Below, piece after piece: positions 21,973 to 38,095 of a DNA stretch of 64,000 nucleotides (the stretch's first letter is position 1; each line of letters starts with the position of its first letter). Both the position numbers and the translations under genes were made by a program. The stretch lies in assembly GCA_964486105.1 (NCBI GenBank), contig CAZAKR010000002.1:62949-126948 (forward strand), given 5' to 3'. Below the pieces are notes generated by a model, which worked only from the letters and a program-made list of their open reading frames with translations, was not told the DNA's origin and ran no database searches. The DNA is from an uncultured Rhodospirillaceae bacterium (GTDB lineage: Bacteria; Pseudomonadota; Alphaproteobacteria; UBA11136).

Positions 21973-22023
21973 CCGCGTTCAGCCAGCCCTTATATAATCG
22001 CCATAACCCGCCATTAGCCGAAA

Positions 22024-22878
22024 ATGAACGAAACTTCCGATATTGAGGATATTCGCGCCCATGTTCGGCAGGTTGTCGAGGCTTCCGGCACGTCCTTTTA
22101 CTGGGGCATGCGGATTCTTCCCCCTGAGCGCCGGGAGGCCATGTACGCCATCTATGCCTTTTGCCGTGAGGTAGACGACATCGCCGACGACGATATGCCG
22201 CAACCCGAACGTATCTCCCGGCTGGCCGAATGGCGGACCGAAATAGACCGGCTTTTTGCCGGTAATCCCCAAATGCCGACGGCAAGAGCCCTGCTCGAAC
22301 CGACCCAAGAGTTCGACCTTCAAAGGGAAGACTTTCTCGCCGTCATCGACGGCATGGAAATGGATGCGAGGGAAGCCATGCGCGGGCCCTCCCTGGCCGA
22401 ATTCGAACTTTATTGCGCCCGGGTCGCCGGCGCCGTCGGGCTCCTCTCCACCCGCGCCTTCGGCGATTCCTCGCCGCGGGCGCGCGATCATGCTCTGGCC
22501 CTTGGCCACGCCCTTCAGATCACAAATATTCTGCGCGATATCGTCGAAGATGCCGAACGGGGCCGGCTCTATCTGCCGAAGGAGATTCTCGAGGCCCACG
22601 GCATCACCGACACCGATCCACAAAAGGTTCTGAAAAACCCGGCCCTGCCAAAAGTCTGCGCCGATCTGGCGGCAATGGCGAGACAGCGTTTTGATGAGGC
22701 GCTCGGCGCCTTGGCCGATTGCGACCGCCGGGCCTTGCGGCCAGCCAGCATCATGCGCGCCATATACCGGCGCGTCCTTGATCGCCTGCAAAAGCGGGGC
22801 TGGGAACGGCTCGACCTGCCGGTAAAAGTATCGAAACCGGAAAAGCTGTGGATCGCCCTTCGTTACGGCATACTCTAG
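22024..22878 (+). CDS. hpnD: Squalene/phytoene synthase family protein, second copy. Likely presqualene diphosphate synthase HpnD
   Basis: YAFCREVDDIADD and NILRDIVEDAERGR motifs. 284 aa. Confidence 0.8.
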   Translation: MNETSDIEDIRAHVRQVVEASGTSFYWGMRILPPERREAMYAIYAFCREVDDIADDDMPQPERISRLAEWRTEIDRLFAGNPQMPTARALLEPTQEFDLQREDFLAVIDGMEMDAREAMRGPSLAEFELYCARVAGAVGLLSTRAFGDSSPRARDHALALGHALQITNILRDIVEDAERGRLYLPKEILEAHGITDTDPQKVLKNPALPKVCADLAAMARQRFDEALGALADCDRRALRPASIMRAIYRRVLDRLQKRGWERLDLPVKVSKPEKLWIALRYGIL

Positions 22879-22882
22879 AGCC

Positions 22883-24166: not shown

Positions 24167-24231
24167 CCTCTTGACAAGGGGCCTATGCACAAGATACCCC
24201 GCTGTTCCGACAAAAAGGACGATCGCCTCTG

Positions 24232-26172
24232 ATGAAAACCGCCGCCCAGCCTTCGAAAAACAACCGCCTCGCAGAAGTCGATACCGTGGTCAAGCAGGTT
24301 CGCAGCGAGCTGGCGGCGCGCCAGGGCGATGAAGGGCACTGGGTCTTCGACCTTGAAGCCGATGCGACGATCCCGGCCGAATATATTCTGCTCAACCATT
24401 TCCTCGACAAGATTGAAGAAGATATTGAAGCGTCACTGGGCGATTATCTGCGCGACATTCAGGGAGAGCACGGCGGCTGGCCCCTGTTTCACGGCGGCGA
24501 TCTCGACATCAGCGCCAGCGTCAAAGCCTATTTCGCCCTGAAGATGATCGGCGACGACGTTGAGGCCCCTCACATGAAGCGGGCGCGGAAGGCCATTCTC
24601 GCCGAGGGCGGGGCGGCCCGCGGCAATGTTTTTACCCGCTTCCAACTGGCGCTGTTTGGCGAGGTTCCCTGGCGCGCGGTCCCCGTCATGCCGGTAGAGA
24701 TCATGCTGCTGCCGCGCTGGTTCCCCTTTCACCTTTCCAAGGTCTCCTATTGGTCGCGCACGGTCATCGCGCCGATGCTCGTTCTCATGGCCTTGAAACC
24801 GACGGCAAAGAATCCCCGCGACGTCCACATCGGTGAGCTTTTCACCACGCCGCCGGAAGAAGAACGCCGCTACAATACAAATCCGACCGGCTCCCTTCTC
24901 GGCGCCTGCTTTCTTGGCCTCGATCGTGTTTTGCGTGTCCTTGAGCCCTTCATTCCCAAGCCCCTGCGCCGCGGCGCTATTGAACGGGCAACGGCCTGGT
25001 TTACCGAGCGGTTGAACGGCGAAGACGGACTCGGCGGCATTTATCCCGCCATGGCCAATGCGGCAATGGCCTATCGCGCCATGGGATATAGTGACGACCA
25101 TCCGGATTACGCCATCGCCCTGAAATCGGTGCGCAAGCTCCTCACCTTTGATGGGGAACGCAAATTCTGCCAGCCCTGCCTGTCGCCGATCTGGGATACC
25201 AGCCTCGCGACCCTGGCCATGTTTGAGGCCGGTGAAAAAGCTGACGGCCCCGTCATTTCAAAAGCCTGCGCCTGGATGAAGGATCGCCAGATCCTTAACG
25301 TCAAAGGCGACTGGGCCGAGAAGAAGCCTGATGTCGCGCCCGGTGGCTGGGCCTTTCAATACTGGAACGATTACTACCCCGATGTCGACGATACCGCCGT
25401 GGTCGCCATGGCCCTTCACCGGGCCGGTATGGACACCCATCAAACATCCCTTAAACGCGCCACCGACTGGATCATCGGCATGCAGAGCAAAAACGGCGGC
25501 TGGGGGGCATTTGACGTCGACAACACCCAGTATTATCTCAACCATATTCCCTTCGCCGATCACGGGGCGCTGCTCGATCCGCCGACCACCGACGTTTCGG
25601 CGCGCTGCGTCAGCATGCTGGCTCAGTTCAGCACGCGTAAAGATCATCCCGCCCTGGAACAGGGGCTGGATTTCCTGCGTCAGGAACAGGAACAAGACGG
25701 CTCCTGGTTCGGGCGCTGGGGTTGTAATTATATCTACGGCACCTGGTCGGCCCTTTGCGCCTTCAACGCCGCTGGTGAAGACATGTCCGCCCCGCATATC
25801 CGCAAGGCCGTGGAGTGGCTGAAATCGCGCCAACGCGAAGACGGCGGCTGGGGCGAGGATGGTGCAACATATTGGGAAGAACGCCGCGACGAGGTCAAGG
25901 TCAGCACGCCGTCGCAAACCGCCTGGGCGCTCATGGCCCTGATGTCGGCGGGCGAGGTCGATAGCGAGGCGGTACGGCGCGGTGTCGATTACCTTCTCCA
26001 AACCCCGCGCAGGAATGGCCGCTGGGATGAGAAATATTACAACGCCGTCGGCTTTCCCCGCGTCTTCTATATTACCTATCACGGCTATGCCGCTTATTTC
26101 CCGCTCTGGGCATTGGCCCGCTACCGCAATCTTGCCAGCGGCAACGCCCCAACCGTGATCCACGGGATGTGA
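24232..26172 (+). CDS. shc: Squalene-hopene cyclase
   Basis: QW repeats and DVDDTAVV catalytic motif. 646 aa. Confidence 0.97.
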   Translation: MKTAAQPSKNNRLAEVDTVVKQVRSELAARQGDEGHWVFDLEADATIPAEYILLNHFLDKIEEDIEASLGDYLRDIQGEHGGWPLFHGGDLDISASVKAYFALKMIGDDVEAPHMKRARKAILAEGGAARGNVFTRFQLALFGEVPWRAVPVMPVEIMLLPRWFPFHLSKVSYWSRTVIAPMLVLMALKPTAKNPRDVHIGELFTTPPEEERRYNTNPTGSLLGACFLGLDRVLRVLEPFIPKPLRRGAIERATAWFTERLNGEDGLGGIYPAMANAAMAYRAMGYSDDHPDYAIALKSVRKLLTFDGERKFCQPCLSPIWDTSLATLAMFEAGEKADGPVISKACAWMKDRQILNVKGDWAEKKPDVAPGGWAFQYWNDYYPDVDDTAVVAMALHRAGMDTHQTSLKRATDWIIGMQSKNGGWGAFDVDNTQYYLNHIPFADHGALLDPPTTDVSARCVSMLAQFSTRKDHPALEQGLDFLRQEQEQDGSWFGRWGCNYIYGTWSALCAFNAAGEDMSAPHIRKAVEWLKSRQREDGGWGEDGATYWEERRDEVKVSTPSQTAWALMALMSAGEVDSEAVRRGVDYLLQTPRRNGRWDEKYYNAVGFPRVFYITYHGYAAYFPLWALARYRNLASGNAPTVIHGM

Positions 26173-26846
26173 CCCCCGATAGCCCTACCAGAATCGGCGT
26201 CATTACCGGTCTTGCAGCCGAGGCGGCATGCCTGCACGGCAGGGGCTATGATATTTTTTGTTGCGGCGCCCGCCCCGCCCGGGCGCGGGAAGGCGTGCAA
26301 AGCCTGATCTCAAACGGCGTTTCCGGTCTCGTCAGCTTCGGCCTTGCCGGCGGGCTCGATCCGGCACTTGCCCCCGGCGCCCTCGTTCTCGCCGCCTCGG
26401 TCATCACGCCGCAAGGGGATCGCCTTGAAACAGACATTGCATGGCGTCAAACCTTCCGCCAGTCCGCCCCGGACGGGGTCATCGAAAGCGCCATTGCCGG
26501 AAGCGAAAGGGCGGTCAAAACCGCGGCGGGAAAACAGGCGATGCACGCATCAACCGGGGCGGTGGCCGTTGACATGGAAAGCCACATCGTTGCCGCCGCC
26601 GCCGAGGATGCGGGGCTGCCCTTCCTCGTCATCCGGGTGGTCGCCGACCCGGCGGCCCGCGCCATCCCGGATCTTGCGATGAAGAGCCTGGACGCTGAGG
26701 GAAACACACTCATTCTTCCGGTTCTGATGACGGTTCTGCGGCGGCCGAAAGAGCTGGCGGGACTGCTGCAACTGGCGATGGATTCGAGAAAGGCCTTTGC
26801 CGCCCTGCGCCGCGCCGCCAGGGTGGACTTGTCGGCAGAAAGCTAG
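26169..26846 (+). CDS. hpnG: Hopanoid-associated phosphorylase/nucleosidase (PNP_UDP family)
   Basis: PNP/MTA-nucleosidase-like sequence, 4-nt overlap with shc. Confidence 0.8.
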   Translation: MTPDSPTRIGVITGLAAEAACLHGRGYDIFCCGARPARAREGVQSLISNGVSGLVSFGLAGGLDPALAPGALVLAASVITPQGDRLETDIAWRQTFRQSAPDGVIESAIAGSERAVKTAAGKQAMHASTGAVAVDMESHIVAAAAEDAGLPFLVIRVVADPAARAIPDLAMKSLDAEGNTLILPVLMTVLRRPKELAGLLQLAMDSRKAFAALRRAARVDLSAES

Positions 26847-27970
26847 GCGGCTTTTGTGCCCTTGCTGCGGATATCTTCCATGGCATCGCTGACATGGGCC
26901 GAAAAAACATCTTCCGCCACCCGCGCATTTTCCAATGGCACATCCGGCGCCATCGGCCCCTCGGTCCGAACACCGCCGAGGGCGGTCTTTAAGGCCTTGA
27001 AGGGGTTTTTCAGGGCATCGGTGACGGCGGTCGCCTCATAGCCGCAATGGGCCATGCAATTGGCGCATTTCTCGTAATTGCCGGTACCGTATTTATCCCA
27101 CTGGGTATCTTCCATCAGCTCGCGAAAACTGTCGGTATAGCCCTCGCCGATCAGGTAGCAGGGTTTTTGCCAGCCAAATATATTGCGGGTGGGGTTTCCC
27201 CACGGCGTGCAATGATAGGTCTGGTTGCCGGCAAGAAAATCGAGGAAAAGCGAGGAATGGCTGAACTGCCATTTCCGGCCCTTGTTGCGACGAAAGATAT
27301 CGCGGAACAGATTGCGGGTTTTCTCGCGGTTGAGAAAGTGTTCCTGATCGGGTGCGCGCTCGTAAGCATAGCCGGGCGAGACGGTAATCCCCTCGATCCC
27401 GAGACCAGTGGCAAAATCGAAGAATCGCGCCACCTGCGCATCATCGGTGCCATCAAACAGGGTGGTGTTGATGTTAACCCTAAAGCCTCTCCTCCGCGCT
27501 TCGCGTATGGCCTCGACCGCCATGTCGAAAACCCCTTCCTGACAGACCGCTTCGTCGTGAACTTCGCGTTCGCCGTCGAGATGGACTGAAAAGGTCAGAT
27601 AGGGGCTGGGGGTGTACTGGTCGATCTTTTTTCTGAGCAGAAGGGCGTTGGTGCACAGATAGACAAACTTTTTGCGCCCCACCAATGCTGTCACGATTTC
27701 AGGCATTTCCTTGTGAAGCAGGGGCTCGCCACCGGGAATGGAAACCACTGGCACCCCGCATTCCTCCACCGCATCAATACATTGCTGCACGCTTAAGCGC
27801 TGATTGAGAATAGGATCGGGATAATCGATCTTGCCGCAGCCGGCACAGGCGAGATTGCAGCGGAACAGGGGCTCGAGCATCAAGACGAGGGGATATTTCT
27901 CGACGCCCATCAGCTTTTGCTTGAGGACATAGGCGCCGACACGAACTTGCTGGATCAGGGGAATAGCCAC
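26843..27970 (-). CDS. hpnH: Radical SAM adenosylhopane-forming enzyme HpnH
   Basis: CNLACAGCGKIDYP radical SAM motif, HpnH-type C-terminal Cys motifs. Confidence 0.9.
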   Translation of the reverse strand: MAIPLIQQVRVGAYVLKQKLMGVEKYPLVLMLEPLFRCNLACAGCGKIDYPDPILNQRLSVQQCIDAVEECGVPVVSIPGGEPLLHKEMPEIVTALVGRKKFVYLCTNALLLRKKIDQYTPSPYLTFSVHLDGEREVHDEAVCQEGVFDMAVEAIREARRRGFRVNINTTLFDGTDDAQVARFFDFATGLGIEGITVSPGYAYERAPDQEHFLNREKTRNLFRDIFRRNKGRKWQFSHSSLFLDFLAGNQTYHCTPWGNPTRNIFGWQKPCYLIGEGYTDSFRELMEDTQWDKYGTGNYEKCANCMAHCGYEATAVTDALKNPFKALKTALGGVRTEGPMAPDVPLENARVAEDVFSAHVSDAMEDIRSKGTKAA

Positions 27971-28009
27971 TTCATCAGTCTCTTTTTATTAAAGGCAAAT
28001 CAAACCCGC

Positions 28010-28969
28010 TTATGCGACCGATGCCGCAACGAGTTGCTCGGGAAGCTTGAACTGAACATTTTCGTCCTCGCCATCCAGGTTTTCGATTGCAAGATCGCGG
28101 CATTTTCGCAATTCCTCAATCAACTCCAGCACCAGTTCTTCCGGCGTCGAAGCACCGGCGGTAATACCGACTGTTCCGATACCCTCCAGCCAGAGCGGGT
28201 CAAAAGCGCTGGGGTCTTCGATCAAATGGGTATCTATCCCGGTTTCCGAACCAATTTCCTGAAGCCGGTTGGAGTTCGAGCTGTTCCGGGCACCAACTAC
28301 GAGCAGCAAATCGACCTTCTCGGTCAGGGTTCGAACTGCCGATTGCCGGTTCTGGGTCGCATAGCAGATGTCCTTGACGTCGGGGCCTACGATTTTGGGG
28401 TATCGGGTCTGCAACGCCTCGATCACGTCGCGGGTGTCATCAACAGACAGGGTGGTCTGGCTGACATAGGCCAGCTTGTCCGGGCTGGTGACCTCAAGCT
28501 TGTTTACATTCTCAGGGGTCGAGACCAGATAGACCTTGCCGGGAATGCGTCCCATGGTCCCCTCGACCTCCGGGTGCCCTTCATGGCCGATCAGCACCAC
28601 TTCGTATCCGTTGGCGGCATAGCGCTGGCCTTCCTTGTGCACCTTGTCGACAAGGGGGCAGGTCGCATCGAGAATGGGCAGGGCGCGGGACAGGGCGTTG
28701 TCGGCAACCTTCTGGGCGACTCCATGGGCGCTGAAAATCGTCACCGCCCCGTCGGGGATTTCATCCAGTTCCTCGACAAAGACAGCGCCCTTGGCCTTCA
28801 AATCCTCAACCACACGTTTGTTGTGAACGATTTCATGGCGCACATAAACGGGCGGCCCATAGAGGCCGAGGGCACGTTCGACAATTTCAATGGCCCGCTC
28901 CACGCCGGCACAAAAGCCCCTGGGCTTGGCAAGGATGACTCGCAATTCCTGTTTCTCCCTCATCGCCAA
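28010..28969 (-). CDS. ispH: 4-hydroxy-3-methylbut-2-enyl diphosphate reductase
   Basis: LytB/IspH family with conserved Cys residues, 39 bp downstream of hpnH. Preceded by a G8 tract forming the SD. Confidence 0.95.
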
Positions 28970-29188: not shown

Positions 29189-29845
29189 ATGTACGCAATA
29201 ACCCGCCCAAAAAGCCTTTTTCCCCTTATCCGCCACCTCTCCTATGGCGCCACTTTATGGCTGGCAAGGCTTCCCCTGACTCCCAACCAGATCACGACCC
29301 TTTCCCTGGCTACCGGACTAGGTTGCGTATGGTCTTATCTCCATTCAGGATTGGCCTGGCAGTTGGCGGGGGCTCTTCTGCTCGTTATCTGCTACGCCCT
29401 CGATAATTGCGACGGCGAGATTGCCCGGCTGAAAAACCTTCACTCAAACTTCGGCGCCCATTTCGACACCTTCGTCGACTGGATCGTCCACGCCGCATTC
29501 TTTGCCGCGCTCGGCTATCAGGTCAGCGTCGGAAAAGATCAAAACCTCTGGTTCTGGCTCGGCCTGATCGCCGCTTTCGGCGCCACCCTCAACTACATCC
29601 TGGGCTATATCCTCGTCGAGGAAGAAACCGAGCCCCATGAGACGGAATTAACAACCATGCCGGAGGCGCCAATGGAAAAGGCGCTGTTTATCCTGCGTGA
29701 GCTTTTCAGGGCGGATTTCTGCTTCATCCTTCTCTTCCTGACAGTGTTTGACGGGGCATGGCTCCTCCTTCCCTTAGGCGCACTCGGCGCCCAGGTTTAC
29801 TGGGTCTCGGCTTTTCATAAAGCCGCCCGCAACTTTCACGTCTGA
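29189..29845 (+). CDS. CDP-alcohol phosphatidyltransferase family membrane protein, paralog 1. Complete D-x2-DG-x2-AR-x8-G-x3-D-x3-D motif
   Basis: DNCDGEIARLKNLHSNFGAHFDTFVD motif. Multi-TM, 218 aa. Confidence 0.8.
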   Translation: MYAITRPKSLFPLIRHLSYGATLWLARLPLTPNQITTLSLATGLGCVWSYLHSGLAWQLAGALLLVICYALDNCDGEIARLKNLHSNFGAHFDTFVDWIVHAAFFAALGYQVSVGKDQNLWFWLGLIAAFGATLNYILGYILVEEETEPHETELTTMPEAPMEKALFILRELFRADFCFILLFLTVFDGAWLLLPLGALGAQVYWVSAFHKAARNFHV

Positions 29846-29862
29846 ATATTGAGAGCGCAATC

Positions 29863-30480
29863 ATGGCTGATAAAGCTCCCTGGGATCAAAGACTGGCGCG
29901 GATAATCGTCCGCCCCCTTGCCCGCACCGCGATCACTCCCAATCAGATCACAATCCTTACCCTGATCCTGGCCCTGGCCGGAGCCGCGATGTTCGCACAA
30001 GGCACACCGGAAACAGTCAATTGGGGCGCCGGCTTTTTCATCCTTGCCCGCTTCATGGACCATTTCGACGGTGAACTGGCGCGGATGACCGGCAAAACCA
30101 GCCGGCTGGGCTATTACCTTGATTACCTGTCCGGCGGGGTGAGCTACGCCGCTCTTTTCATCTGTATCGGGATCGGGCTTGGCAATGCATCTTTTGCCGG
30201 AGTTTCTCTCGGCATCTGGCCGGCAATACTCGGCTGTCTTGCGGGAGCCGGGGCGTTCGCCAGCATGTTCATCAATCTCAAGATTGACCGGCAGATGGAA
30301 CTGGAAGAAGGCGAGGCGATCGGCTATCCGGGCTTTGCCGGTTTTGAGCTTGAGGACGGGATCTATCTTCTCGGCCCGGTCACCTGGGTCGGCCTGTTGA
30401 CGCCGTTCTTCCTGCTCGCCGCCCCCAGTGCGATCATTTACACCCTGTGGTCGCTTGCCATCAGCCTGCGCAAGGGATAA
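29863..30480 (+). CDS. CDP-alcohol phosphatidyltransferase family membrane protein, paralog 2. Final Asp of the motif replaced by Gly
   Basis: DHFDGELARMTGKTSRLGYYLDYLSGG motif. 205 aa. Closely related to paralog 3. Confidence 0.8.
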   Translation: MADKAPWDQRLARIIVRPLARTAITPNQITILTLILALAGAAMFAQGTPETVNWGAGFFILARFMDHFDGELARMTGKTSRLGYYLDYLSGGVSYAALFICIGIGLGNASFAGVSLGIWPAILGCLAGAGAFASMFINLKIDRQMELEEGEAIGYPGFAGFELEDGIYLLGPVTWVGLLTPFFLLAAPSAIIYTLWSLAISLRKG

Positions 30481-30498
30481 CCCCCCCCGAGAGTGCTT

Positions 30499-31488
30499 TT
30501 AAAGGTAATCCTTGGCCTTGAACCAGTCGATGGCGTCCACCAGGGCCTCTTTTGCCGGGCGTGGCTCATAGCCGAGGTCGCGGCGGGCCTTGTCGATGGA
30601 AAAGAACATATGTTTGCGCGACAGCTTCAACCCGTCGACGGTCACCATGGGCTCCGGCCCGCCGGTTATCCGGGCAAAAGCCTCGGCCACATAAGCAATC
30701 GGCAGAACCAGATTATGGGGCAGATTGACCTTTGGGGGCCGACGGTCGGTAATCCGCGCGATTTCACCGAGAATTTCCCGCAAGGTGGCGTTTTCCGCCC
30801 CCAGCACGTAACGCTCTCCGATCTCTCCGCGCTCAAAGGCCAGAAGATGGCCCCGCGCCACATCATCCACATGAACGATGTTGAGGCCGGTATCGACGAA
30901 AGCCGGCATTTTCCCTGCCGCCGCCTGAACGATCATGCGGCCGGTCGGGGTTGGCCTGATATCCCGCGGACCGACGGGTGCCGCGGGGTTGACGATCACA
31001 GCCGCCAGACCCTTCCCGGCAACCATTTCCCGGACCACTTCTTCGGCCAGAAACTTCGAGCGCTTATAAGCACCGATCATGTCGTCCAGGGTTACCGGCG
31101 TCGCTTCGTCGGACGGGGTGCCGTCGGCGTTCAGTCCAAGGGTCGCGACACTGCTCGTATAGACGACCTTTGAGACACCCTCTTCAAGCGCCGCTTCCAT
31201 GATATTGCGGGTGCCTATTACGTTGGAATCGATGATCTCCTGGGGGTTGGGGGCCCACAGGCGGTAATCGGCCGCCACATGGAACAAGGCCTCGCAGCCG
31301 GCGACAGCCGCCTTAAGAGAATCCTTGTCGCGCAGGTCCCCGGTGACGATCTCGACGTCGAGACCTTCCAGGTTTCGCCGGTCGCTATGGGGCCGCACCA
31401 TGGCGCGGGTCTGGTGGCCGGCCTCAATAAGGGCGCGGAGAACCGCCGCCCCGACAAAGCCCGATGCGCCAGTGATTAAGGTCGTCAC
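30499..31488 (-). CDS. hpnA: NAD-dependent epimerase/dehydratase, hopanoid-associated sugar epimerase type
   Basis: N-terminal GASGFVG Rossmann motif, SDR-extended family, location in the hopanoid cluster. Confidence 0.65.
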   Translation of the reverse strand: MTTLITGASGFVGAAVLRALIEAGHQTRAMVRPHSDRRNLEGLDVEIVTGDLRDKDSLKAAVAGCEALFHVAADYRLWAPNPQEIIDSNVIGTRNIMEAALEEGVSKVVYTSSVATLGLNADGTPSDEATPVTLDDMIGAYKRSKFLAEEVVREMVAGKGLAAVIVNPAAPVGPRDIRPTPTGRMIVQAAAGKMPAFVDTGLNIVHVDDVARGHLLAFERGEIGERYVLGAENATLREILGEIARITDRRPPKVNLPHNLVLPIAYVAEAFARITGGPEPMVTVDGLKLSRKHMFFSIDKARRDLGYEPRPAKEALVDAIDWFKAKDYL

Positions 31489-32105
31489 TTATCCACGCCC
31501 CCATGCACTTTGCGATAGCGGTCAAACAGCACCCAGACGAGAAATACCGGGGCGCCGATACCCGCCGCGATCAAAAACAGCTTAAGCCCCCCGAGCCAGG
31601 TCACGGGGCCGACAATATAGAGGGTGTCTTCGGGCTCAAAACCAAGAAAGTTAGGCTGACTGATCGACCCCCGGCCGACGCGCAGTTCAATGCCGAGGCG
31701 GATCGTAAAAATCAGGGTGACACCGAAACCGGCGAGAATACCGAGAAGGATGGCGGCGTTCCCCAGAGGACCGAAGCGTTCCCCGGCGCCAATGCCGATA
31801 AACAGCGCCACATAGCCGACACCGACGGCAAAATGGTCGTAATAGTGGCCGAAGTCGCTGGTCTTGCCGGTGGCCCGGGCCACTTCACCGTCCACATGAT
31901 CGGTAAAGGCCGCCAGCATGAATAAGGCTGCGGCCCAGTTGGCGGCAACCGTCTCGCCAAGGGAGAACAGATAAGCCGCGCCGATGCCCGATAACAGACA
32001 AAAGGTAGTGACGGCATTGGGATGAACGTGGAAACGGGCCAGAAAGCGGGCCAAGTGCCGGGCCAGAAGATGGTCCCAGGCTATCGGCAGATTAAAAGCG
32101 CTCAC
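31485..32105 (-). CDS. CDP-alcohol phosphatidyltransferase family membrane protein, paralog 3. Final Asp of the motif replaced by Val
   Basis: DHVDGEVARATGKTSDFGHYYDHFAVG motif. 206 aa, 4-nt overlap with hpnA. Confidence 0.8.
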   Translation of the reverse strand: MSAFNLPIAWDHLLARHLARFLARFHVHPNAVTTFCLLSGIGAAYLFSLGETVAANWAAALFMLAAFTDHVDGEVARATGKTSDFGHYYDHFAVGVGYVALFIGIGAGERFGPLGNAAILLGILAGFGVTLIFTIRLGIELRVGRGSISQPNFLGFEPEDTLYIVGPVTWLGGLKLFLIAAGIGAPVFLVWVLFDRYRKVHGGVDK

Positions 32106-32108: not shown

Positions 32109-32852
32109 TCATGTCTCCTGCAAATTGGGGAGAATTTCCGTCTCGGCGCGTTCAACATCTTCAGCAAAGTCGATCTCGATCCAGGGGAGCCCCGTTACAT
32201 CTTCATATCCGAAAGCATCAACGGGCCCGGCCAGCAATTCGTCCCTGACCGCCTCTTCATACCATTCATCCCGGCGACCGTCATCGACATAAGCTTGCGT
32301 CCGCTGGGCCAGGCGGCGGGCGATCTCGGGGGAAAATTTGAAGAAACCGACAGATTCACCGCTGGTGTCAAAGGGGTTTTTGACTTTTTTATGAAAATCG
32401 ACGAGGCGCCCTTCCTTCAGGCACAGCTTGACCGGTTCATCGCCGGGCTCGAAATCGCGATCCATCAGGAAACAATTGGCGGCGCGGGTATCGATCAGAC
32501 GCGCGATCATACGGGCGTCGTACAGCACGTCGGCATCCATCAGCAATACATCCGCGCCGCGTTCAAGTTCGGCCCGCGCCGTCCATAAAGAGACAACGCT
32601 GCCTTCGCGGAAATGGGGATTGTCGAGCCGGCGCACAAAGTCCTGCGCCCCCAGGCGGCCTATTTCCGCCTCGAACAATTCGGCGCGATAGCCGGTTACG
32701 GTCACCACCTCCTCGATACCGCAGGATTTGAGAATTTCGAGATGCCGCTGAAACAGGGTCTTGCCCCCGAACTGCAACATCGCCTTGGGCGGATGATCTT
32801 CACCCGAACCAAGGCGGGCGCCGACACCAGCGGCCAGAATAATCGCTCTCAT
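32109..32852 (-). CDS. Nucleotidyltransferase (LicC/PntC-like cytidylyltransferase family)
   Basis: N-terminal ILAAGVGARLG...PPKAMLQFGGKTL signature of sugar/phosphoalcohol NTP transferases. 247 aa, 4-nt overlap with hpnN. Confidence 0.75.
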   Translation of the reverse strand: MRAIILAAGVGARLGSGEDHPPKAMLQFGGKTLFQRHLEILKSCGIEEVVTVTGYRAELFEAEIGRLGAQDFVRRLDNPHFREGSVVSLWTARAELERGADVLLMDADVLYDARMIARLIDTRAANCFLMDRDFEPGDEPVKLCLKEGRLVDFHKKVKNPFDTSGESVGFFKFSPEIARRLAQRTQAYVDDGRRDEWYEEAVRDELLAGPVDAFGYEDVTGLPWIEIDFAEDVERAETEILPNLQET

Positions 32853-35545
32853 GTCACCTTCCCCGTTACGTCGCCTTCCGCCCTACCCTGCGCCCTGTCT
32901 GCCCGGCAGACAAGAAGAGCCGGCAGAACCACCAACGTGCAGAGCAATGCGAAGGTCAGTGAAATAGACAATAACTGGCCCATGCTCGCCGTCCCCCGGT
33001 GATCGGAGACCACCAGGCTGCCGAAAGCGCACATAGTGGTCAGGGCACTATAGAATATGGCGCGCGGTGTGCTCGTTTGCATGATGCTCATCACCGACGG
33101 CGCTTCCCTGGCCCGCAGGACAAGATAAATACCGTAATCGATGCCGAGACTGAACAGCAGGGGCACGGCAATGATATTGGCAAAATTCAGCGGAATATTG
33201 AAGATCACCGAGGCCGAACCGGTGAGGATTGCGGCAAGAAACATGGGCAACAGCACCAGGACCGCATCGGTCAAATTCCGCAGAACCACAAGAAGCAGGA
33301 GAAAGATCAGGGTCAGTGAAAGGGCGCCGGCCTGTTTGAATGCCGTCATCACGGCGACGCCGCCCTCAAGCAGAATCACCGGGTTGTCGGTGGCCTCCGG
33401 GACAATCGCCCTCACCGCATTGACAAAACGCGCAATCGCTTCATTGCTGTCCATCCTTTCGGTTGGCAGAACTTCGATCAACGCCTGACCGTCGGCCGTC
33501 ATATTGCGGGCGTAAACATCTCCCGGTAAATCTTCCACGGCGACCGGCCGGGCGTCCAGAGAGCGTCGAAGCCGGTCAAGCCGGTTGGGCAGGCTCATCA
33601 GGGCCTGATCCTCGAAAGCGGCGAGATCGGCGGAAGAAATATCCGCCGCCGGGCCAAATTTATCCAGGGCATCGGCCAGGCGCCGGGCGCTGTCTTTAAG
33701 GTGCGCCAGAGTCTCATCTCCAATAAAACCGTCAGGCTTTACCCCGAAATCGAGCTTTGCCCTGAAGTCGGCGATTGCCACCCGCCTTGCGTCGTCGTCA
33801 GGCGGAGCGAGGCGTTCAGAGCTGTCGAGGATGGGATAGAGATAGAGAATCATGTCGTCGATAATCGCCAGCTTGTCCTCCTGATCCTGGGGGACGTAAT
33901 CGGCAAGGGTGATGGTTTTATCGACCAGAGCCAGGGCATCAATTTCACCGGCCTGGATTTGCGCCGTCTCAAAATCCGTCGCCAGGACCGAGATCGCATA
34001 GGTCGAGCGCCGACCGTCTTCCATAACATCGAGAGCCGTCTGCACCGATTGGGTGGAAGGATCGCGCAGGTTCATGGGATCAAAATCAAAATGAAGCCGG
34101 GGCAGGAACGCAACTGCCGCCACCATCCCCAAAACCAGGGCGCCGAAAGAGATAAGGCGGGCGTGGCGCAGAAAAAGGACGGAATAAACTTCCAGCCAGC
34201 GGAGCTTGGGCGCAGGCGCCGCCAAGGCGCCGGATTTAAGTGGAAGAAGCGATAAAACCGCCGGCAGAACAGTCAGATTGGCGAAAAGAGCAATGAACAT
34301 GCTGCCGCCAGCGATAATTCCAAGTTCGGAAAGACCGATATAGGCGGTCGGCGCAAAGGCGAAAAAACCGATGGCGCTGGTCAGGGCGGCGAGGGAAATT
34401 CCGCCCCCGACACCGCTGGCGGCCAGGGACAGAGCCCGCTCGGCGGTGTGGCCATTGCCGATTTCCTCGCGATAGCGCAGGCAATACTGAATGCCGAAAT
34501 CGACCCCGATTCCGATAAAAAGAACCGCGAAAGCAACTGAAATGAGATTAAGCTGACCAACCGAAACCGTTGCCCAGCCTGCCGTCCAGACGAGCCCCAT
34601 GGTCAGAGAAACCAGAGTGGCAAAGACCATGCGGAACGAACGAAAGCCCAGGGTGACAATAACGGCGACCAGAAAAAACGAGAGAAATTCGGCTTTTGTC
34701 GCGCCCTCAAAAACACTTTGGAGCTCCTCCTGTTCGAGGACAATCCCCCCGGTCAGGCGCACATTCACCCCATGCTCGGCATCAAGCCCGAGATCTGCCG
34801 CCGCCTCGCGGATCATATCAATTGCATCGGCGGCCGGATTGAGACCTGAAAAATCAACTTTCGGCTGGGCGATGATAAAATGCCGATAATCCGATGGGTC
34901 GCTCTCGCCGCCGGTCATCATCTCACGCCAGGACAGGGGGATCGGGTGACCCGCCTGTTGCCGTTCAATAGTCTCGGACAGGCGGTCAAAGGCCTCAATC
35001 AACCGTTCGGGATCGGTTTCACCGTCTTTCACCTCATCGGCGGCCAGCCCCAAAACCTCGAACAACCCCCGCAGGCTCGTATCTGTCGAAAGCTTGGCCA
35101 GCATCGGCTGGGCGTCGGCAAGGTTGTCGGAGAGGTCGAGGAGTTCCTCAAGGTCGAGATAGAGAAGACCGTTGGAAACGAAAAAGGGATCATTGGCAAA
35201 ATCGATAACGAAATTGAAAGCGCCCTCTGTCTCCTTCAGGCGGGCTGAAAGAGCAGCCGCGGCGTCTTCGGACAGATCGGGGGTTTCACCATCGATGACG
35301 ATGGTGATGTTATTCCGCAAATTGGGAAAAGCAGCCTGGAATTTATTCTGATCCTTGCGAAATTGCAGTTCGCTGGAAAGCAGGTCGTTGGTTGAGGTGT
35401 TGATTTCGAGCCTGTTCACCGTGTAGAACAGCGAGGCGATTGTAAAAAGGGCGGCAAGCAGCAAAACCGGTATGGGGTTGCGCCCGATTAAATCGACCCA
35501 ATTTTCGAGAAGGCGAAGATATTTCCTGCCAATCGCCTTGATCAC
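32849..35545 (-). CDS. hpnN: RND/MMPL-type hopanoid transporter
   Basis: 898 aa, two 6-TM bundles with large periplasmic loops (sterol-sensing-domain-like RND), hopanoid cluster location. Confidence 0.85.
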   Translation of the reverse strand: MIKAIGRKYLRLLENWVDLIGRNPIPVLLLAALFTIASLFYTVNRLEINTSTNDLLSSELQFRKDQNKFQAAFPNLRNNITIVIDGETPDLSEDAAAALSARLKETEGAFNFVIDFANDPFFVSNGLLYLDLEELLDLSDNLADAQPMLAKLSTDTSLRGLFEVLGLAADEVKDGETDPERLIEAFDRLSETIERQQAGHPIPLSWREMMTGGESDPSDYRHFIIAQPKVDFSGLNPAADAIDMIREAAADLGLDAEHGVNVRLTGGIVLEQEELQSVFEGATKAEFLSFFLVAVIVTLGFRSFRMVFATLVSLTMGLVWTAGWATVSVGQLNLISVAFAVLFIGIGVDFGIQYCLRYREEIGNGHTAERALSLAASGVGGGISLAALTSAIGFFAFAPTAYIGLSELGIIAGGSMFIALFANLTVLPAVLSLLPLKSGALAAPAPKLRWLEVYSVLFLRHARLISFGALVLGMVAAVAFLPRLHFDFDPMNLRDPSTQSVQTALDVMEDGRRSTYAISVLATDFETAQIQAGEIDALALVDKTITLADYVPQDQEDKLAIIDDMILYLYPILDSSERLAPPDDDARRVAIADFRAKLDFGVKPDGFIGDETLAHLKDSARRLADALDKFGPAADISSADLAAFEDQALMSLPNRLDRLRRSLDARPVAVEDLPGDVYARNMTADGQALIEVLPTERMDSNEAIARFVNAVRAIVPEATDNPVILLEGGVAVMTAFKQAGALSLTLIFLLLLVVLRNLTDAVLVLLPMFLAAILTGSASVIFNIPLNFANIIAVPLLFSLGIDYGIYLVLRAREAPSVMSIMQTSTPRAIFYSALTTMCAFGSLVVSDHRGTASMGQLLSISLTFALLCTLVVLPALLVCRADRAQGRAEGDVTGKVT

Positions 35546-35622
35546 GCCACAATCCTTGTGGAAAAGACGTTACAGGCCCTCACAGGCTCACAAAACCGCG
35601 TGCGGAAGGTTAGAACTGCGTA

Positions 35623-36299
35623 TGGCTGATAATAAATCAATATATTCAATTGGTTATAAACTTAACCGCTTTCGGTTTACAGGCAAATTTGTTCATTCGG
35701 TTGTTCTGGTTCTGGCCGTGCTTATAGCGTTTTCGGCCAAGGCAGAGCAAGCCCAGCCGCGTCAGGTCATCGAACGGTTCCACCAATCGCTGATCGCAGT
35801 GATGAAAGACGGGGAAAATCTCGGGTACCAGGGCCGTTATGCCTGGCTGGAGCCGATTATCAAGGAAACCTTCTATCTTTCAGAAATGACCCGGATTTCC
35901 ACCGGGCGAAGCTGGAACAAGGCTTCCGAGGCGATCAAGGCGGAGGTTATCGACGCCTTCACCAACATGACCATCGCCAACTACTCGTCACGATTTGACG
36001 CCTATAACGGTGAATTTTTCGAGACCCTGAGCGTTGAAGACGCGCCGAGGGAAACAGCCCAGGTCAAAACCCAGATCATCAAATCTGACGGGGAAGCCGT
36101 CTCCTTTAACTACCTGCTGCGGAAAAACGATCAGGGAGAATGGCGGGTCGTCGATATCTACCTGAAGGGAACCTACAGCGAACTGGCGACCCGAAAATCG
36201 GAATATGTCTCGGTTATCCGAAACAAGGGATTCGACGCCTTGATCAACGCCTTGCGGGAAAAAACGGTCAATATCGCCAAAAAAGCCGAGGATTCCTGA
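35623..36299 (+). CDS. hpnM: MlaC/Ttg2D-family periplasmic lipid-binding protein, hopanoid-associated HpnM type
   Basis: Toluene-tolerance Ttg2D-like sequence with signal/anchor segment. Start set to MADNK (ATG at 35623), divergent from hpnN. Confidence 0.65.
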
Positions 36300-36430: not shown

Positions 36431-38095
36431 ATGACCCCGGCCACCAAGCCCAAACTCTCACTCGCCACGCCTGCGCTTTCCAAAGCCGGCCAGCTGCGCC
36501 GTGAGCTCAATTCGCCGGAGCTTTCCTTCCTTATGGAAGCCCATAACGGCCTGTCGGCGAAAATCGTCGAGGAAGCCGGGTTCAAGGGGATCTGGGCTTC
36601 GGGCCTGTCGATCTCGGCTGCGCTGGGCGTACGCGACAGCAACGAAGCTTCCTGGACGCAGGTTCTCGAAGTCCTCGAATTCATGTCCGAGGGAACGTCG
36701 ATCCCGATCCTGGTTGACGGCGACACCGGCTACGGCAACTTTAACAACATGCGCCGCCTGGTGAAAAAGCTGTGCCAGCGCAACATTGCCGGTGTCTGTA
36801 TTGAGGACAAGCTGTTCCCCAAGACCAACTCCTTTATCGGCGACGGCCAGCCGCTGGCCGATATCGGCGAATTCTGCGGCAAAATCAAGGCCGGCAAGGA
36901 TAGCCAGAGCGATCCGGATTTTGTAATCGTCGCCCGTGTCGAGGCGTTGATTTCCGGCTGGGGGCTGGACGAGGCTCTGCGCCGCGGCGAGGCCTACGCC
37001 CAAGCCGGGGCGGATGCCATTCTCATTCATTCGAAAGAACCGACGGCCACTGAAATTCTCAGTTTCAAGGAGGAATGGGGGGATCGCACCCCCCTGGTCA
37101 TCGTCCCGACCATGTATCACGACACGCCGACCGAAACATTCCGCAAGGCCGGTATTTCGATGGCGATCTGGGCCAACCACAATCTGCGCGCCTCGATCGC
37201 GGCAATGCGGGAAACCTGCCGGCAAATCAAGGATTCCGAGAGCATCGTCGATGTCGAGGGAAAGGTCACCTCGGTGCGCGAAGTGTTTGAGCTCGTCGGC
37301 AACGAAGAGCTGGCCGAAGCCGAACGCCTGTATCTCGGCGAGCCCGAGGAAGGTGCCCATGGAATTGTCATCGCCGCCTCGCGGGGCGGCAAGCTCGGAG
37401 AGCTGACCGAGGACCGCCCCAAATGCATGATTGACGTTCGCGGAAAACCCCTGTTGCGGCGGCTCGTTTCCACCTTGAAAAAGAACGGGGTGCGGAACGT
37501 CACCGTGGTGCGCGGCTACAAGAAGGAAGTGATCGACCTGCCCTCCATCAACATGGTGGATAATGACGAGTACGGGGAAACCGGCGAAGCATTTTCCCTT
37601 TCCAAGGCGATTGAACAACTAAAGGGCGACTGCATTATCAGTTACGGGGATATTCTTTTCCGCCGCTATATCCTTGACGCCCTGATGTCGGCGAAGGCCG
37701 ATATCGTTCTCGCCGTCGATGCCCTATCAGAAGGCATGAATATTGAAAATGCCGAGCGCAAAGTTGACGTGGTGTCCTGTTCGCGCCGGTTTACAGGCGA
37801 TTATCTCTCCGAAATCGACCCCGCCTGGGTTGAAAAAATCAGCAACAATATCCCCGCCGCCGACATTCACGGCGAATGGATCGGCCTGGTTCGCACCAGC
37901 CCGAGGGGCTCTGATCTCATCCGCGCCGAGATTGCCGCCATGGAAGAAGAGGGCAGCTTGGCCAATGCCAGCCTGCTAGATCTTCTCAGCCGCCTGCTTG
38001 AGGCCGGGCATAAAATCGGCGCGCTCTATGTCGCTGGAAACTGGCTCGACGTGGATGATGCCTTTGACCTGGCTGAAGCGCGCAACTTCACCTGA
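36431..38095 (+). CDS. Phosphoenolpyruvate phosphomutase fused to a C-terminal nucleotidyltransferase domain (phosphonate-specific cytidylyltransferase-like)
   Basis: N-terminal ICL/PEPM fold with the EDKxxxxxNS motif ([13 protein letters not shown]). C-terminal about 250 aa has the NTP-transferase signature ([28 protein letters not shown]). Confidence 0.85.

What the first reader, a model, noticed from the sequence alone, without database searches (positions are those of the whole stretch)
29189..32105. Paralog divergence in the CDP-alcohol phosphotransferase triplet: two copies lack the final Asp of the catalytic motif
Paralog 1 carries the full D-x2-DG-x2-AR-x8-G-x3-D-x3-D motif (DNCDGEIAR...GAHFDTFVD). 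Paralogs 2 and 3 are clearly closer to each other (ARMTGKTSRLGYYLDYLSGG versus ARATGKTSDFGHYYDHFAVG) and both replace the last Asp with Gly or Val. This suggests functional divergence: a different donor or acceptor, or a regulatory or structural partner, rather than simple redundancy.
Basis: seen in the sequence. Interest (0 to 1): 0.5.

Follow-up and report, generated by a model that had tools for sequence, protein, structure and literature searches.

The report
Conserved CDP-alcohol phosphotransferases lacking catalytic Asp
Two of three neighbouring membrane lipid-headgroup transferases in a hopanoid-plus-phosphonate gene cluster lack an aspartate thought essential for this enzyme family, and the loss is ancient, conserved and under selection, so they probably work by a modified mechanism.

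Summary
P1 (29189-29845) has the full D1xxD2GxxAR-x8-GxxxD3xxxD4 motif. P2 (29863-30480) has Gly and P3 (31485-32105, minus strand) has Val at D4, in an ungapped register against AF2299 and M. tuberculosis PgsA1.

This is not decay:
- All 120 listed P2 homologues have Gly at D4.
- 115 of 119 P3 homologues have Ala, Val, Ser, Met or a similar residue there.
- The other seven signature residues are retained.
- dN/dS is 0.14-0.18.

P2 and P3 are sister families inside a clade of about 200-residue CDP-alcohol phosphotransferases. This clade is tied to 2-aminoethylphosphonate (AEP) clusters containing a Ppm-PntC fusion, Ppd, an AEP transaminase and a second PntC. In marine Alphaproteobacteria these clusters are interleaved with hopanoid genes (shc, hpnG/H/A/N/M).

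Several related clusters show only D4-less copies in the DNA retrieved, which argues against dead subunits. P3 has His, and P2 has Tyr, at D3+1. That is the position of the proposed catalytic His133 of eukaryotic cholinephosphotransferase.

My best reading is active transferases with a relocated base that move AEP from CMP-AEP onto a membrane lipid, possibly a hopanoid. Donor, acceptor and base are inferred. The kind is known; the variant is new.

The parts
29189..29845 (+). P1: CDP-alcohol phosphotransferase of 218 aa with the complete signature (D72, D75, G76, A79, R80, G89, D93, D97). It is AF2299/DIPPS-like (DNCDGEIARLK).
   Evidence: PF01066 at 51.2 bits. Best solved relative is AF2299, E 5e-11. 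107 of 108 homologues keep D4. dN/dS 0.146.
29402..29479 (+). P1 signature motif DNCDGEIARLKNLHSNFGAHFDTFVD.
   Evidence: Translation of the exact coordinates.
29863..30480 (+). P2: CDP-alcohol phosphotransferase of 205 aa lacking D4 (Gly91). It has His67 at D1+1, Tyr84 at G2+1, Tyr88 at D3+1, and a GFELED acidic loop starting at residue 160.
   Evidence: PF01066 at 51.7 bits. Gly at D4 in 120 of 120 protein homologues and 80 of 80 genomic loci. AlphaFold model pLDDT 86.7, pTM 0.84, six TM helices. Foldseek top hit AF2299, TM-score 0.68. dN/dS 0.182.
30058..30135 (+). P2 signature motif DHFDGELARMTGKTSRLGYYLDYLSG. The codon at 30133-30135 encodes Gly at the D4 position.
   Evidence: Ungapped alignment to AF2299 and PgsA1.
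30499..31488 (-). hpnA, the hopanoid-associated SDR ('sugar epimerase'). It lies between P2 and P3, and its start overlaps the P3 stop codon.
   Evidence: TIGR03466 at 508 bits against a 368-bit cut-off. Coordinates.
31485..32105 (-). P3: CDP-alcohol phosphotransferase of 206 aa lacking D4 (Val94). It has His70 at D1+1, His87 at G2+1, His91 at D3+1, and a GFEPED loop starting at residue 155.
   Evidence: PF01066 at 54.4 bits. Among homologues the D4 position is A52, V29, S15, M15, T3, D3, I1, G1, while D1-D3 are kept. D3+1 is His in 110 of 119. dN/dS 0.138.
31824..31901 (-). P3 signature motif DHVDGEVARATGKTSDFGHYYDHFAV. The codon at 31824-31826 encodes Val at the D4 position.
32109..32852 (-). 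Stand-alone cytidylyltransferase-type NTP transferase, read as a second PntC-like activating enzyme. It is in the operon hpnN-NTPt-P3-hpnA.
   Evidence: PF12804. Best solved relative is the T. denticola PntC fusion 6pd1 (E 1.8e-11), then LicC.
32849..35545 (-). hpnN, an RND/MMPL hopanoid transporter.
   Evidence: TIGR03480 at 968 bits against a 752-bit cut-off.
35622..36299 (+). hpnM, an MlaC-like lipid-binding protein. The ORF could start as early as 35472.
   Evidence: TIGR03481 at 198 bits against a 160-bit cut-off. The gene call of 225 aa is on the identical contig.
36431..38095 (+). PEP mutase fused to an NTP_transf_3 cytidylyltransferase domain (Ppm-PntC type). It would make phosphonopyruvate and probably activates AEP to CMP-AEP.
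   Evidence: TIGR02320 at 386 bits. PF13714 plus PF12804. The fusion type is described in PMC6697681.
38142..39278 (+). Phosphonopyruvate decarboxylase (Ppd).
   Evidence: TIGR03297 at 427 bits.
39275..40435 (-). 2-aminoethylphosphonate:pyruvate transaminase.
   Evidence: NF010006 at 544 bits.
19000..28969 (.). Hopanoid core genes: hpnC, dxs, hpnD, hpnE, shc, hpnG, hpnH, ispH.
   Evidence: NCBIfam hits for hpnC, dxs and hpnD. Pfam gene calls on the identical contig. ORF translations.

Best explanation
P2 and P3 are most likely functional, non-redundant transferases. They belong to a clade of small (about 200 aa) CDP-alcohol phosphotransferases specialised for phosphonate (AEP) gene clusters.

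Shown here:
- The common ancestor of the P2 and P3 families probably lost the fourth signature aspartate (D4).
- Both families kept every residue that binds the metal and the cytidine nucleotide: D1, D2, D3, the two Gly, Ala-Arg, and the TM1 PNxxT motif.
- Both have been maintained by purifying selection in hundreds of sequence clusters.
- They always sit next to the AEP pathway (Ppm-PntC fusion, Ppd, AEP transaminase, a second PntC-like cytidylyltransferase). In most marine alphaproteobacterial genomes they also sit next to hopanoid synthesis and export genes (shc, hpnG, hpnH, hpnA, hpnN, hpnM).

Inferred:
- The donor is CMP-AEP, or the product of the second cytidylyltransferase.
- The acceptor is the hydroxyl of a membrane lipid, plausibly the polyol side chain of a bacteriohopanepolyol or diacylglycerol. 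The product would then be handled by HpnN/HpnM.
- The job of activating the acceptor hydroxyl has moved one helical turn from D4 to the residue after D3. This is His91 in P3, backed by His87, and Tyr88 in P2, backed by Tyr84. It is the position where eukaryotic cholinephosphotransferase has its proposed catalytic His133/Glu129 pair.
- The invariant Gly at D4 in P2 probably makes room for that Tyr or for a bulky acceptor.
- P1, which keeps D4 and resembles AF2299/DIPPS, probably carries out a separate transfer.
For: Sequence and conservation:
- Motif and register.
- P2 family: Gly at D4 in 120 of 120, His at D1+1 in 120 of 120, Tyr at D3+1 in 119 of 120.
- P3 family: non-Asp at D4 in 115 of 119, His at D3+1 in 110 of 119, His at G2+1 in 118 of 119. 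D1-D3, G, A and R are kept in 119 of 120.
- Purifying selection: dN/dS is 0.18 for P2 and 0.14 for P3, against 0.08-0.10 for neighbouring genes.
- P2 folds confidently as a six-TM CDP-AP: pLDDT 86.7, with AF2299 and PIP synthases as top structural matches.
- A neighbour-joining tree gives (P1,(P3',(P3,P2))), so P2 and P3 are sisters.

Broader clade, among 50%-identity representatives:
- 51 of 133 lack D4, mostly in one subtree.
- Tyr, His or Phe at D3+1 occurs in 43 of 51 D4-less representatives against 16 of 82 with D4.

Gene context:
- Loci L008, L009, L019, L034 and L083/L084 contain only two CDP-AP genes, both D4-less, beside a complete AEP pathway.
- Synteny with AEP and hpn genes holds across 80 genomes.
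- The second NTP transferase is closest to PntC.

Literature precedent:
- In xlCHPT1, His133 (D3+1) and Glu129 (G2+1) are the proposed catalytic pair, and H133A and E129A abolish activity (PMC10182977).
- In MtPgsA1 the D3+1 residue A90 lines the acceptor pocket next to D93 (PMC6506517).
Against: - D4 is described as absolutely conserved and as the likely catalytic base. D93N in M. tuberculosis PIP synthase nearly abolishes activity while substrate still binds (PMC4634129). In PgsA1 and CHPT1, D4 also ligates the second Mg2+. A D4-less enzyme therefore lacks a metal ligand as well as a base.
- The link between D4 loss and D3+1 is not exclusive. An 'RYD' group has Tyr at D3+1 together with D4, and Burkholderia-type proteins have His at D1+1 with D4.
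- P2 is almost never found without a second small CDP-AP nearby (67 of 72 loci), which also fits a partner role.
- The D4 position in P3 varies (A, V, S, M, T), so it carries no specific function there.
- No biochemical datum, product structure or coordinates of the active site were available. The structure tool returns no coordinates, so the geometry of His91 and Tyr88 is inferred from helix periodicity and published homologues only.
- 'Only D4-less copies' refers to about 10 kb each side of MAG contigs. A D4-bearing copy could lie elsewhere in those genomes.
Confidence: 0.5

Rival explanations
1. P2 and P3 are catalytically impaired subunits. They still bind CMP-AEP and Mg2+, but they only work as heterodimers with a D4-bearing paralog (P1 here, P3' in most relatives) or with each other. 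They would supply acceptor-pocket residues in trans, or regulate or hand over donor.
For: - CDP-APs are dimers, and in MtPgsA1 residues of the second protomer (Y133, K135, R137) line the acceptor pocket.
- A D4-to-N mutant binds substrate but is inactive.
- P2 has a second small CDP-AP within 2.5 kb in 67 of 72 loci.
- In the window, P1 and P2 are co-directional and 17 nt apart.
- One MAG encodes a 407-aa in-frame tandem fusion of two P3-type domains. Its second half has also lost D3, so it looks like a fused pseudo-heterodimer. It sits in the same operon position as P3.
Against: - Five loci have only D4-less copies within the retrieved DNA.
- D1-D3, G, A and R are kept in 119 of 120 or more of both families, which a scaffold would not need. 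The degenerate second half of the fusion shows what relaxed constraint looks like.
- In most genomes P2 and its neighbour P3' are convergent, and P1 is on the other strand behind hpnN, so there is no consistent co-operonic pairing.
- CEPT1 protomers appear to act independently.
Confidence: 0.25
2. P2 and P3 catalyse a different chemistry in which no general base is needed. One option is attack by an already anionic nucleophile, such as the phosphate or phosphonate of a lipid or headgroup, giving an anhydride. Another is a hydrolytic, exchange or reverse reaction on CMP-phosphonates.
For: - Donor-binding residues are retained while the residue assigned to alcohol deprotonation is lost.
- Two cytidylyltransferases and three transferases in one cluster imply more than one transfer step.
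- A conserved acidic loop, GF(E/D)x(E/D)D, is shared by P2, P3 and P3' but absent from P1. This points to a distinct headgroup or acceptor site.
Against: - I know of no such reaction in the CDP-AP family.
- The acidic loop also occurs in P3', which keeps D4, so it does not correlate with D4 loss.
- The His at D3+1 in P3 matches a precedent for ordinary alcohol activation.
Confidence: 0.1
3. P2 and P3 are decaying duplicates or annotation or assembly artefacts, with no function of their own.
For: Loss of a residue called absolutely conserved. Nothing else.
Against: - dN/dS is 0.14-0.18.
- More than 1,200 (P2) and more than 200 (P3) homologous 90%-identity clusters match at E<=1e-5, and all 120 listed for each show the family-specific pattern.
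- The locus is identical on many independent contigs.
- The ORFs are intact, and P3 has a plausible ribosome-binding site.
- P2 folds with high confidence.
Confidence: 0.02

Closest known systems
AF2299 (Archaeoglobus fulgidus CDP-alcohol phosphotransferase, PDB 4o6m/4o6n) and the DIPPS domain of IPCT-DIPPS (4mnd)
   Same: - Best sequence match in the PDB for P1 (E 5e-11) and P2 (E 4e-8).
- Best structural match for the P2 model (TM-score 0.68).
- Same six-TM fold.
- Same D1xxD2GxxAR...G...D3 spacing.
- P1 shares the D(N/G)CDGEIARLK string.
   Different: - AF2299 and DIPPS keep D4.
- They carry an extra cytoplasmic domain.
- They have no link to phosphonate or hopanoid genes.
- P2 and P3 have Gly or Val at D4.
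Bacterial phosphatidylinositol-phosphate synthases (M. tuberculosis PgsA1 6h53/6h59, R. salmoninarum PIPS 5d91)
   Same: - Similar size (about 200 aa) and fold.
- Second-best structural matches.
- They are the source of the functional assignment of D4 and of the D3+1 residue lining the acceptor pocket.
   Different: - They use CDP-diacylglycerol plus inositol phosphate.
- D4 (D93) is essential.
- D3+1 is Ala.
- P2 and P3 lack D4 and have Tyr or His at D3+1.
Eukaryotic choline/ethanolamine phosphotransferases (xlCHPT1, hCEPT1), extended motif G2ExxD3HxxD4
   Same: - They transfer a soluble CDP-activated headgroup onto a lipid hydroxyl, the reaction type expected for CMP-AEP.
- The proposed catalytic His sits at D3+1, exactly where P3 has its conserved His91.
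- A partner residue sits at G2+1, which is His87 in P3.
- I recall, from general knowledge and not checked here, that enzymes of this type make AEP lipids in ciliates.
   Different: - They are much larger (10 TM).
- They keep D4 as a Mg2+ ligand.
- The partner residue is Glu rather than His or Tyr.
- They show no detectable close sequence relationship. The resemblance is in mechanism, not membership.
CDP-OH transferases of the 'Burkholderiales_CDP-OH' (Group 1 phosphonolipid) ppm gene-cluster family
   Same: - Same cluster logic: Ppm-PntC fusion, Ppd, AEP transaminase, second PntC, CDP-alcohol transferase genes. The product is still uncharacterised (PMC8942020).
- The B. cenocepacia protein is 40-43% identical to P2 and P3 and lies in the same clade.
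   Different: - The Burkholderia protein keeps D4 (DHTDGELARISGKSSKIGHFYDLAAD).
- That cluster family includes an alpha-ketoglutarate/Fe(II) oxygenase, which I did not find here.
- It is not described as linked to hopanoid genes, and none lay within 9 kb of the B. cenocepacia hit.
Hybrid hopanoid-phosphonate clusters noted in Roseomonas and Nitrosococcus ('terpene-phosphonate' or 'phosphonoterpene' speculation)
   Same: - ppm, ppd and the AEP transaminase sit next to shc and hpn genes (PMC8776678; PMC8942020).
- Roseomonas marmotae plasmid p1318-3 has hpnA, hpnC-E, shc, hpnG, hpnH, ispH, a CDP-AP, the AEP genes, an NTP transferase and an MMPL transporter in one block.
   Different: - Roseomonas has a single CDP-AP, of the P3' type, with D4 present.
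- The window has three, two of them D4-less.
- No product has been isolated for any of these clusters.

Membership tests
CDP-alcohol phosphotransferase family (Pfam PF01066) | Match to the family HMM above the curated cut-off | tested here: met
   P1 51.2, P2 51.7 and P3 54.4 bits against a gathering score of 22.
CDP-alcohol phosphotransferase family (Pfam PF01066) | Eight-residue signature D1xxD2GxxAR...GxxxD3xxxD4, all eight present | tested here: not met
   P1 has all eight. P2 (Gly91) and P3 (Val94) have seven of eight, in an ungapped register. The feature is met for P1 only.
CDP-alcohol phosphotransferase family (Pfam PF01066) | TM1 P(D/N)xx(T/S) motif that contacts the cytosine ring | tested here: met
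   P1 TPNQIT, P2 TPNQIT, P3 HPNAVT. The motif is described in PMC4634129.
CDP-alcohol phosphotransferase family (Pfam PF01066) | Six-TM core fold with an N-terminal juxtamembrane helix | tested here: met
   P2 model: pLDDT 86.7, helices 7-20, 26-46, 49-76, 81-105, 119-144, 163-175 and 179-204. Foldseek top hits are AF2299 and PIP synthases, probability 1.00, TM-score 0.67-0.69. P1 and P3 were not modelled.
CDP-alcohol phosphotransferase family (Pfam PF01066) | Mg2+/Mn2+-dependent transfer of a substituted phosphate from a CDP-linked donor to an alcohol, releasing CMP | not testable with these tools
   Needs an enzyme assay.
Eukaryotic CHPT1/CEPT1-type catalytic centre (G2ExxD3HxxD4) | His at D3+1 | tested here: met
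   P3 has His91, and 110 of 119 homologues have His there. P2 has Tyr88 instead.
Eukaryotic CHPT1/CEPT1-type catalytic centre (G2ExxD3HxxD4) | Glu at G2+1 and Asp at D4 | tested here: not met
   G2+1 is His in P3 and Tyr in P2. D4 is absent from both. They may work like this type but are not members.
Burkholderiales_CDP-OH / Group 1 phosphonolipid ppm gene-cluster family | Ppm fused to PntC, Ppd, AEP transaminase, a second PntC, and CDP-OH transferase gene(s) | tested here: met
   There are three CDP-OH genes here instead of two 'phospholipid' genes.
Burkholderiales_CDP-OH / Group 1 phosphonolipid ppm gene-cluster family | alpha-ketoglutarate/Fe(II) oxygenase in the conserved core | tested here: not met
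   None of the cluster genes or flanking ORFs that I scanned carries an oxygenase domain. Not every small ORF of the window was scanned.
Hopanoid biosynthesis (hpn) gene cluster | HpnC, HpnD, HpnA, HpnN and HpnM above the NCBIfam cut-offs, with shc, hpnE, hpnG, hpnH and ispH adjacent | tested here: met
   The first five are above their cut-offs. The adjacent genes are identified only by Pfam domains on the identical contig and by ORF translations. They were not scored against NCBIfam.

The most novel reading that the evidence does not exclude
The D4-less pair (P2 plus P3, or P2 plus P3') is the dedicated machinery that esterifies 2-aminoethylphosphonate onto a bacteriohopanepolyol side chain. 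The product would be a phosphono-hopanoid, a lipid class not yet described, exported to the outer membrane by HpnN/HpnM in abundant marine Alphaproteobacteria. The enzymes would use a CHPT1-like His or Tyr at D3+1 instead of the canonical fourth aspartate, which would be an independent bacterial reinvention of the eukaryotic catalytic centre.
Probability: 0.2. Interest if true: 0.8.

Novelty: new variant of a known kind. Interest (0 to 1): 0.55.

Why it matters
The fourth aspartate of the CDP-alcohol phosphotransferase signature is treated as invariant and catalytic in every structural paper on the family. Here are two large natural families that do without it yet keep the rest of the active site under selection. 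They offer a ready-made test of what D4 really does (base or metal ligand), and of whether the D3+1 residue can take over, as proposed for eukaryotic Kennedy-pathway enzymes.

They also sit at the unknown final step of a widespread but chemically uncharacterised pathway. Phosphonate-tailored membrane lipids are predicted from about half of all ppm clusters, but none has been isolated from the large proteobacterial cluster families. In marine Alphaproteobacteria the pathway is physically merged with hopanoid synthesis and export. That bears on the sources of marine phosphonates and on hopanoid biomarker diversity.

Tried and rejected
- Register shift. I looked for any alignment that restores an Asp at D4 (MAFFT of the three, phmmer to AF2299 and PgsA1, four-family alignment). 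None does, and there is no acidic residue near the position.
- Pseudogene or artefact. Rejected on conservation and dN/dS.
- 'P3 is the ortholog of the third paralog seen in most relatives.' Rejected. That paralog (P3', DRADG...GHxYDLxxD) keeps D4, and in the tree it is sister to P2 plus P3.
- A strict compensatory rule (His at D1+1 or Tyr/His at D3+1 only when D4 is lost). Weakened. Burkholderia-type proteins have His at D1+1 with D4, and an RYD group has Tyr at D3+1 with D4.
- Active-site geometry from the AlphaFold model. The tool returns confidence and secondary structure only, so I could not measure distances.
- Burkholderia context from the plasmid collection. The record has no annotation, so I used tblastn and a motif scan. 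I found only one canonical-spacing CDP-AP there.
- Yu et al. 2013 (the original Group 1 phosphonolipid prediction) is not in the held library.
- Literature searches for a hopanoid carrying aminoethylphosphonate, or for a characterised bacterial CMP-AEP:lipid transferase, found nothing.
- The neighbour-joining trees are crude (BLOSUM distances, no support values). I use them only for the broad grouping.

Full report
**What is in the window.** The interval 29189-32105 holds four genes: P1 (29189-29845, +, 218 aa), P2 (29863-30480, +, 205 aa), hpnA (30499-31488, -) and P3 (31485-32105, -, 206 aa). P1, P2 and P3 each match Pfam CDP-OH_P_transf (PF01066) well above its cut-off. No NCBIfam equivalog model comes near its own cut-off; the best partial hits are to archaetidylinositol-phosphate and PIP synthases.

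The surroundings form one merged cluster:
- hpnC, dxs, hpnD, hpnE, shc, hpnG, hpnH and ispH lie upstream.
- A PntC-like NTP transferase, hpnN and hpnM follow P3.
- Then come a PEP mutase fused to a cytidylyltransferase domain, phosphonopyruvate decarboxylase, and the AEP transaminase.

The same locus, base for base, is on many marine metagenome contigs. No other CDP-AP motif occurs in the 64 kb.

**The observation.** Translating exact coordinates gives these motifs:
- P1: DNCDGEIARLKNLHSNFGAHFDTFVD
- P2: DHFDGELARMTGKTSRLGYYLDYLSG
- P3: DHVDGEVARATGKTSDFGHYYDHFAV

The spacing from D1 to the D4 position is identical in all three and needs no gap. Alignments to the solved enzymes AF2299 and M. 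tuberculosis PgsA1 put their D4 on P2 Gly91. P2 and P3 are 40% identical. P1 is 27% identical to P2 and 34% to P3.

**It is a family trait, not a local accident.**
- P2 has more than 1,200 homologous 90%-identity clusters at E<=1e-5. All 120 listed (57-100% identity) have Gly at D4, His after D1, and Tyr after G2 and after D3.
- P3 has 217 such clusters. Of the 119 listed that carry the motif, the D4 position is A52, V29, S15, M15, T3, D3, I1, G1. D1-D3 are kept, and 'FGHYYDH' is conserved.
- P1 homologues keep Asp in 107 of 108.
- Against a homologous locus about 85% identical, dN/dS is 0.146 (P1), 0.182 (P2) and 0.138 (P3). The values for hpnA and the NTP transferase are 0.10 and 0.08.
- An AlphaFold model of P2 is confident (pLDDT 86.7, pTM 0.84) and has the six-TM CDP-AP architecture. 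Its best structural matches are AF2299 and PIP synthases.

**Evolutionary frame.** A genome scan with the P2 profile returned 80 loci, almost all alphaproteobacterial MAGs, many of them marine and most labelled Rhodospirillales or similar. One is a cultured strain, Rhodospirillaceae bacterium LM-1.

The typical gene order is hpnM hpnM P1(-) hpnN(-) P2(+) X(-) [AEPT] Ppd PpmNT NTPt hpnA ispH hpnH hpnG shc. Three loci have the AEP genes, the NTP transferase and three CDP-APs but no hpn genes within 10 kb, so the phosphonate module is the tighter association.

In most loci, X is a fourth family that I call P3' (DRADGDLARxTGxTSPxGHxYDLxAD). It keeps D4 in 69 of 69 cases. Only the window's own lineage (L008, L009, L019, L034, L088) has the D4-less P3 type there.

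A neighbour-joining tree gives (P1,(P3',(P3,P2))). A profile search of 1.84 billion cluster representatives found 157 at E<=1e-30. Of the 133 among the 150 listed that carry the motif, 51 lack D4. These fall mainly in one subtree, next to D4-bearing 'HLD' (Burkholderia-type) and 'R(L/Y)D' (P3'-type) groups. The loss therefore looks old and largely single, but the trees are crude.

**Do D4-less copies need a canonical partner?** The evidence points both ways.

Against a required partner:
- L008, L009, L019 and L034 have only P2 and P3. An HpnL-like LPG_synthase_TM gene sits where the window has P1.
- L083/L084 has a P3-type (D4 replaced by Met) and a P2-like (D4 replaced by Gly) copy only.
- An hmmsearch of all ORFs in those loci with a four-family profile finds no third copy.
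- All of these clusters still encode the complete AEP pathway and two cytidylyltransferases.

For a required partner:
- P2 is followed by a second small CDP-AP within 2.5 kb in 67 of 72 loci.
- One MAG encodes an in-frame tandem fusion of two P3-type domains in the P3 operon position. Its second half has also lost D3.

Cultured Roseomonas marmotae (plasmid p1318-3) has a hopanoid-AEP cluster with a single CDP-AP of the P3' type. The Burkholderia cenocepacia 'CDP-OH' cluster protein also keeps D4. A canonical member alone evidently suffices in those organisms.

**Mechanism.** Published work assigns D4 as the catalytic base. D93N in M. tuberculosis PIP synthase abolishes activity without loss of substrate binding (PMC4634129). 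In PgsA1 and CHPT1, D4 also ligates the second metal (PMC6506517; PMC10182977).

Two published details suggest how an enzyme could do without it:
- In PgsA1 the residue after D3 (A90) lines the acceptor pocket next to D93.
- In Xenopus CHPT1 the residue after D3 is His133. Together with Glu129 (after G2) it is the proposed proton-abstracting pair for the diacylglycerol hydroxyl. H133A and E129A kill the enzyme, and the authors extend the motif to G2ExxD3HxxD4.

P3 has His at both of those positions (His87, His91) and P2 has Tyr at both (Tyr84, Tyr88). Among clade representatives, Tyr, His or Phe after D3 occurs in 43 of 51 D4-less proteins against 16 of 82 D4-bearing ones. The association is strong but not exclusive.

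My inference is that P2 and P3 keep donor and metal binding through D1-D3, G, A, R and the TM1 PNxxT motif. They would activate the acceptor with the D3+1 residue. The invariant Gly in P2 would make room for Tyr88 or for a bulky acceptor.

The donor is most likely CMP-AEP. The Ppm-fused NTP_transf_3 domain is the PntC type (PMC6697681), and the stand-alone transferase is closest to the solved T. denticola PntC. The acceptor is unknown. Embedding among shc, hpnG, hpnH, hpnA, hpnN and hpnM points to a hopanoid polyol, but diacylglycerol or another lipid is equally compatible with the enzymology.

A conserved acidic loop, GF(E/D)x(E/D)D, lies before TM5. It is shared by P2, P3 and P3' but not P1. 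It may bind the AEP ammonium group or the acceptor, though that is speculation.

**Comparison with what is known.**
- The cluster logic matches the 'Burkholderiales_CDP-OH' (Group 1 phosphonolipid) family, whose product has never been characterised (PMC8942020). I found no oxygenase here, and there are three transferases rather than two.
- The linkage of ppm to hopanoid genes has been noted for Nitrosococcus ('possible phosphonoterpene') and Roseomonas ('undiscovered terpene-phosphonate').
- I found no paper describing CDP-alcohol phosphotransferases that naturally lack D4, any AEP-hopanoid, or a characterised bacterial CMP-AEP:lipid transferase.

**Verdict.** The interpretation of functional divergence is supported. 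The most likely reading (confidence about 0.5) is active transferases with a relocated catalytic residue in an AEP-lipid, possibly AEP-hopanoid, pathway. An obligate heterodimer role is the main rival (about 0.25). It is a new variant of a known enzyme kind in an uncharacterised but previously noticed type of gene cluster.

Noticed in passing
window 19000-40435: The hopanoid cluster and a complete 2-aminoethylphosphonate pathway form one block. The hopanoid side has hpnC, dxs, hpnD, hpnE, shc, hpnG, hpnH, ispH, hpnA, hpnN and hpnM. The AEP side has the Ppm-cytidylyltransferase fusion, Ppd and the transaminase. dxs is inserted between hpnC and hpnD. No hpnI/J/K, hpnO or hpnP was seen among the genes scanned.
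   Followed up: partly
L090 1300-2523 (NCBI GCA_947258645.1, contig CAMYJL010000318.1): A 407-aa in-frame tandem fusion of two P3-type CDP-AP domains. The first has Thr at D4; the second has Gly at D3 and Ala at D4. The operon is hpnN-NTPt-fusion-hpnA, followed by an HpnL-like ORF that I identified only by eye from its translation. This is a single occurrence and could be an assembly error.
   Followed up: partly
L009 8946-10004 (and by position L008, L019, L034): In L009, a sister lineage of the window, the slot between ispH and P2 holds a 352-aa LPG_synthase_TM (HpnL-like) membrane protein instead of P1. L008, L019 and L034 also lack a P1 hit at that position, but I did not identify the gene there. 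Roseomonas marmotae also has such a gene inside its AEP operon (L087 13679-14668).
   Followed up: partly
L083 11862-12941: A fatty-acid-desaturase-family gene sits between hpnA and the P2-like CDP-AP in another hopanoid-AEP cluster, on a 1.05-Mb contig. This may mean lipid tailoring differs between lineages.
   Followed up: no
most loci L003-L082, upstream of hpnN: Two tandem hpnM (MlaC-like) copies precede the P1-hpnN pair in most Rhodospirillales-type loci. The window has one.
   Followed up: no
window 35472-35622 / 35545: The hpnM ORF can start at 35472, overlapping the start of the divergently transcribed hpnN (which reaches 35545). Gene callers on the identical contig start it at 35622.
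   Followed up: no
window 42563-44274: Genes for formylmethanofuran dehydrogenase subunit C (fhcC-type) and formylmethanofuran:tetrahydromethanopterin formyltransferase (fhcD). These indicate tetrahydromethanopterin-linked C1 metabolism in this marine alphaproteobacterium.
   Followed up: no
window 40536-41018: A small ORF (160 aa) with a weak bacterial-like globin domain (24.9 bits against a 21-bit cut-off), directly downstream of the AEP genes.
   Followed up: no
window 29189 vs 29351: Some gene callers start P1 at an internal Met (164 aa; protein P0242). That truncation would remove TM1 and the PNQIT cytosine-binding motif, so the 218-aa start is the plausible one.
   Followed up: partly
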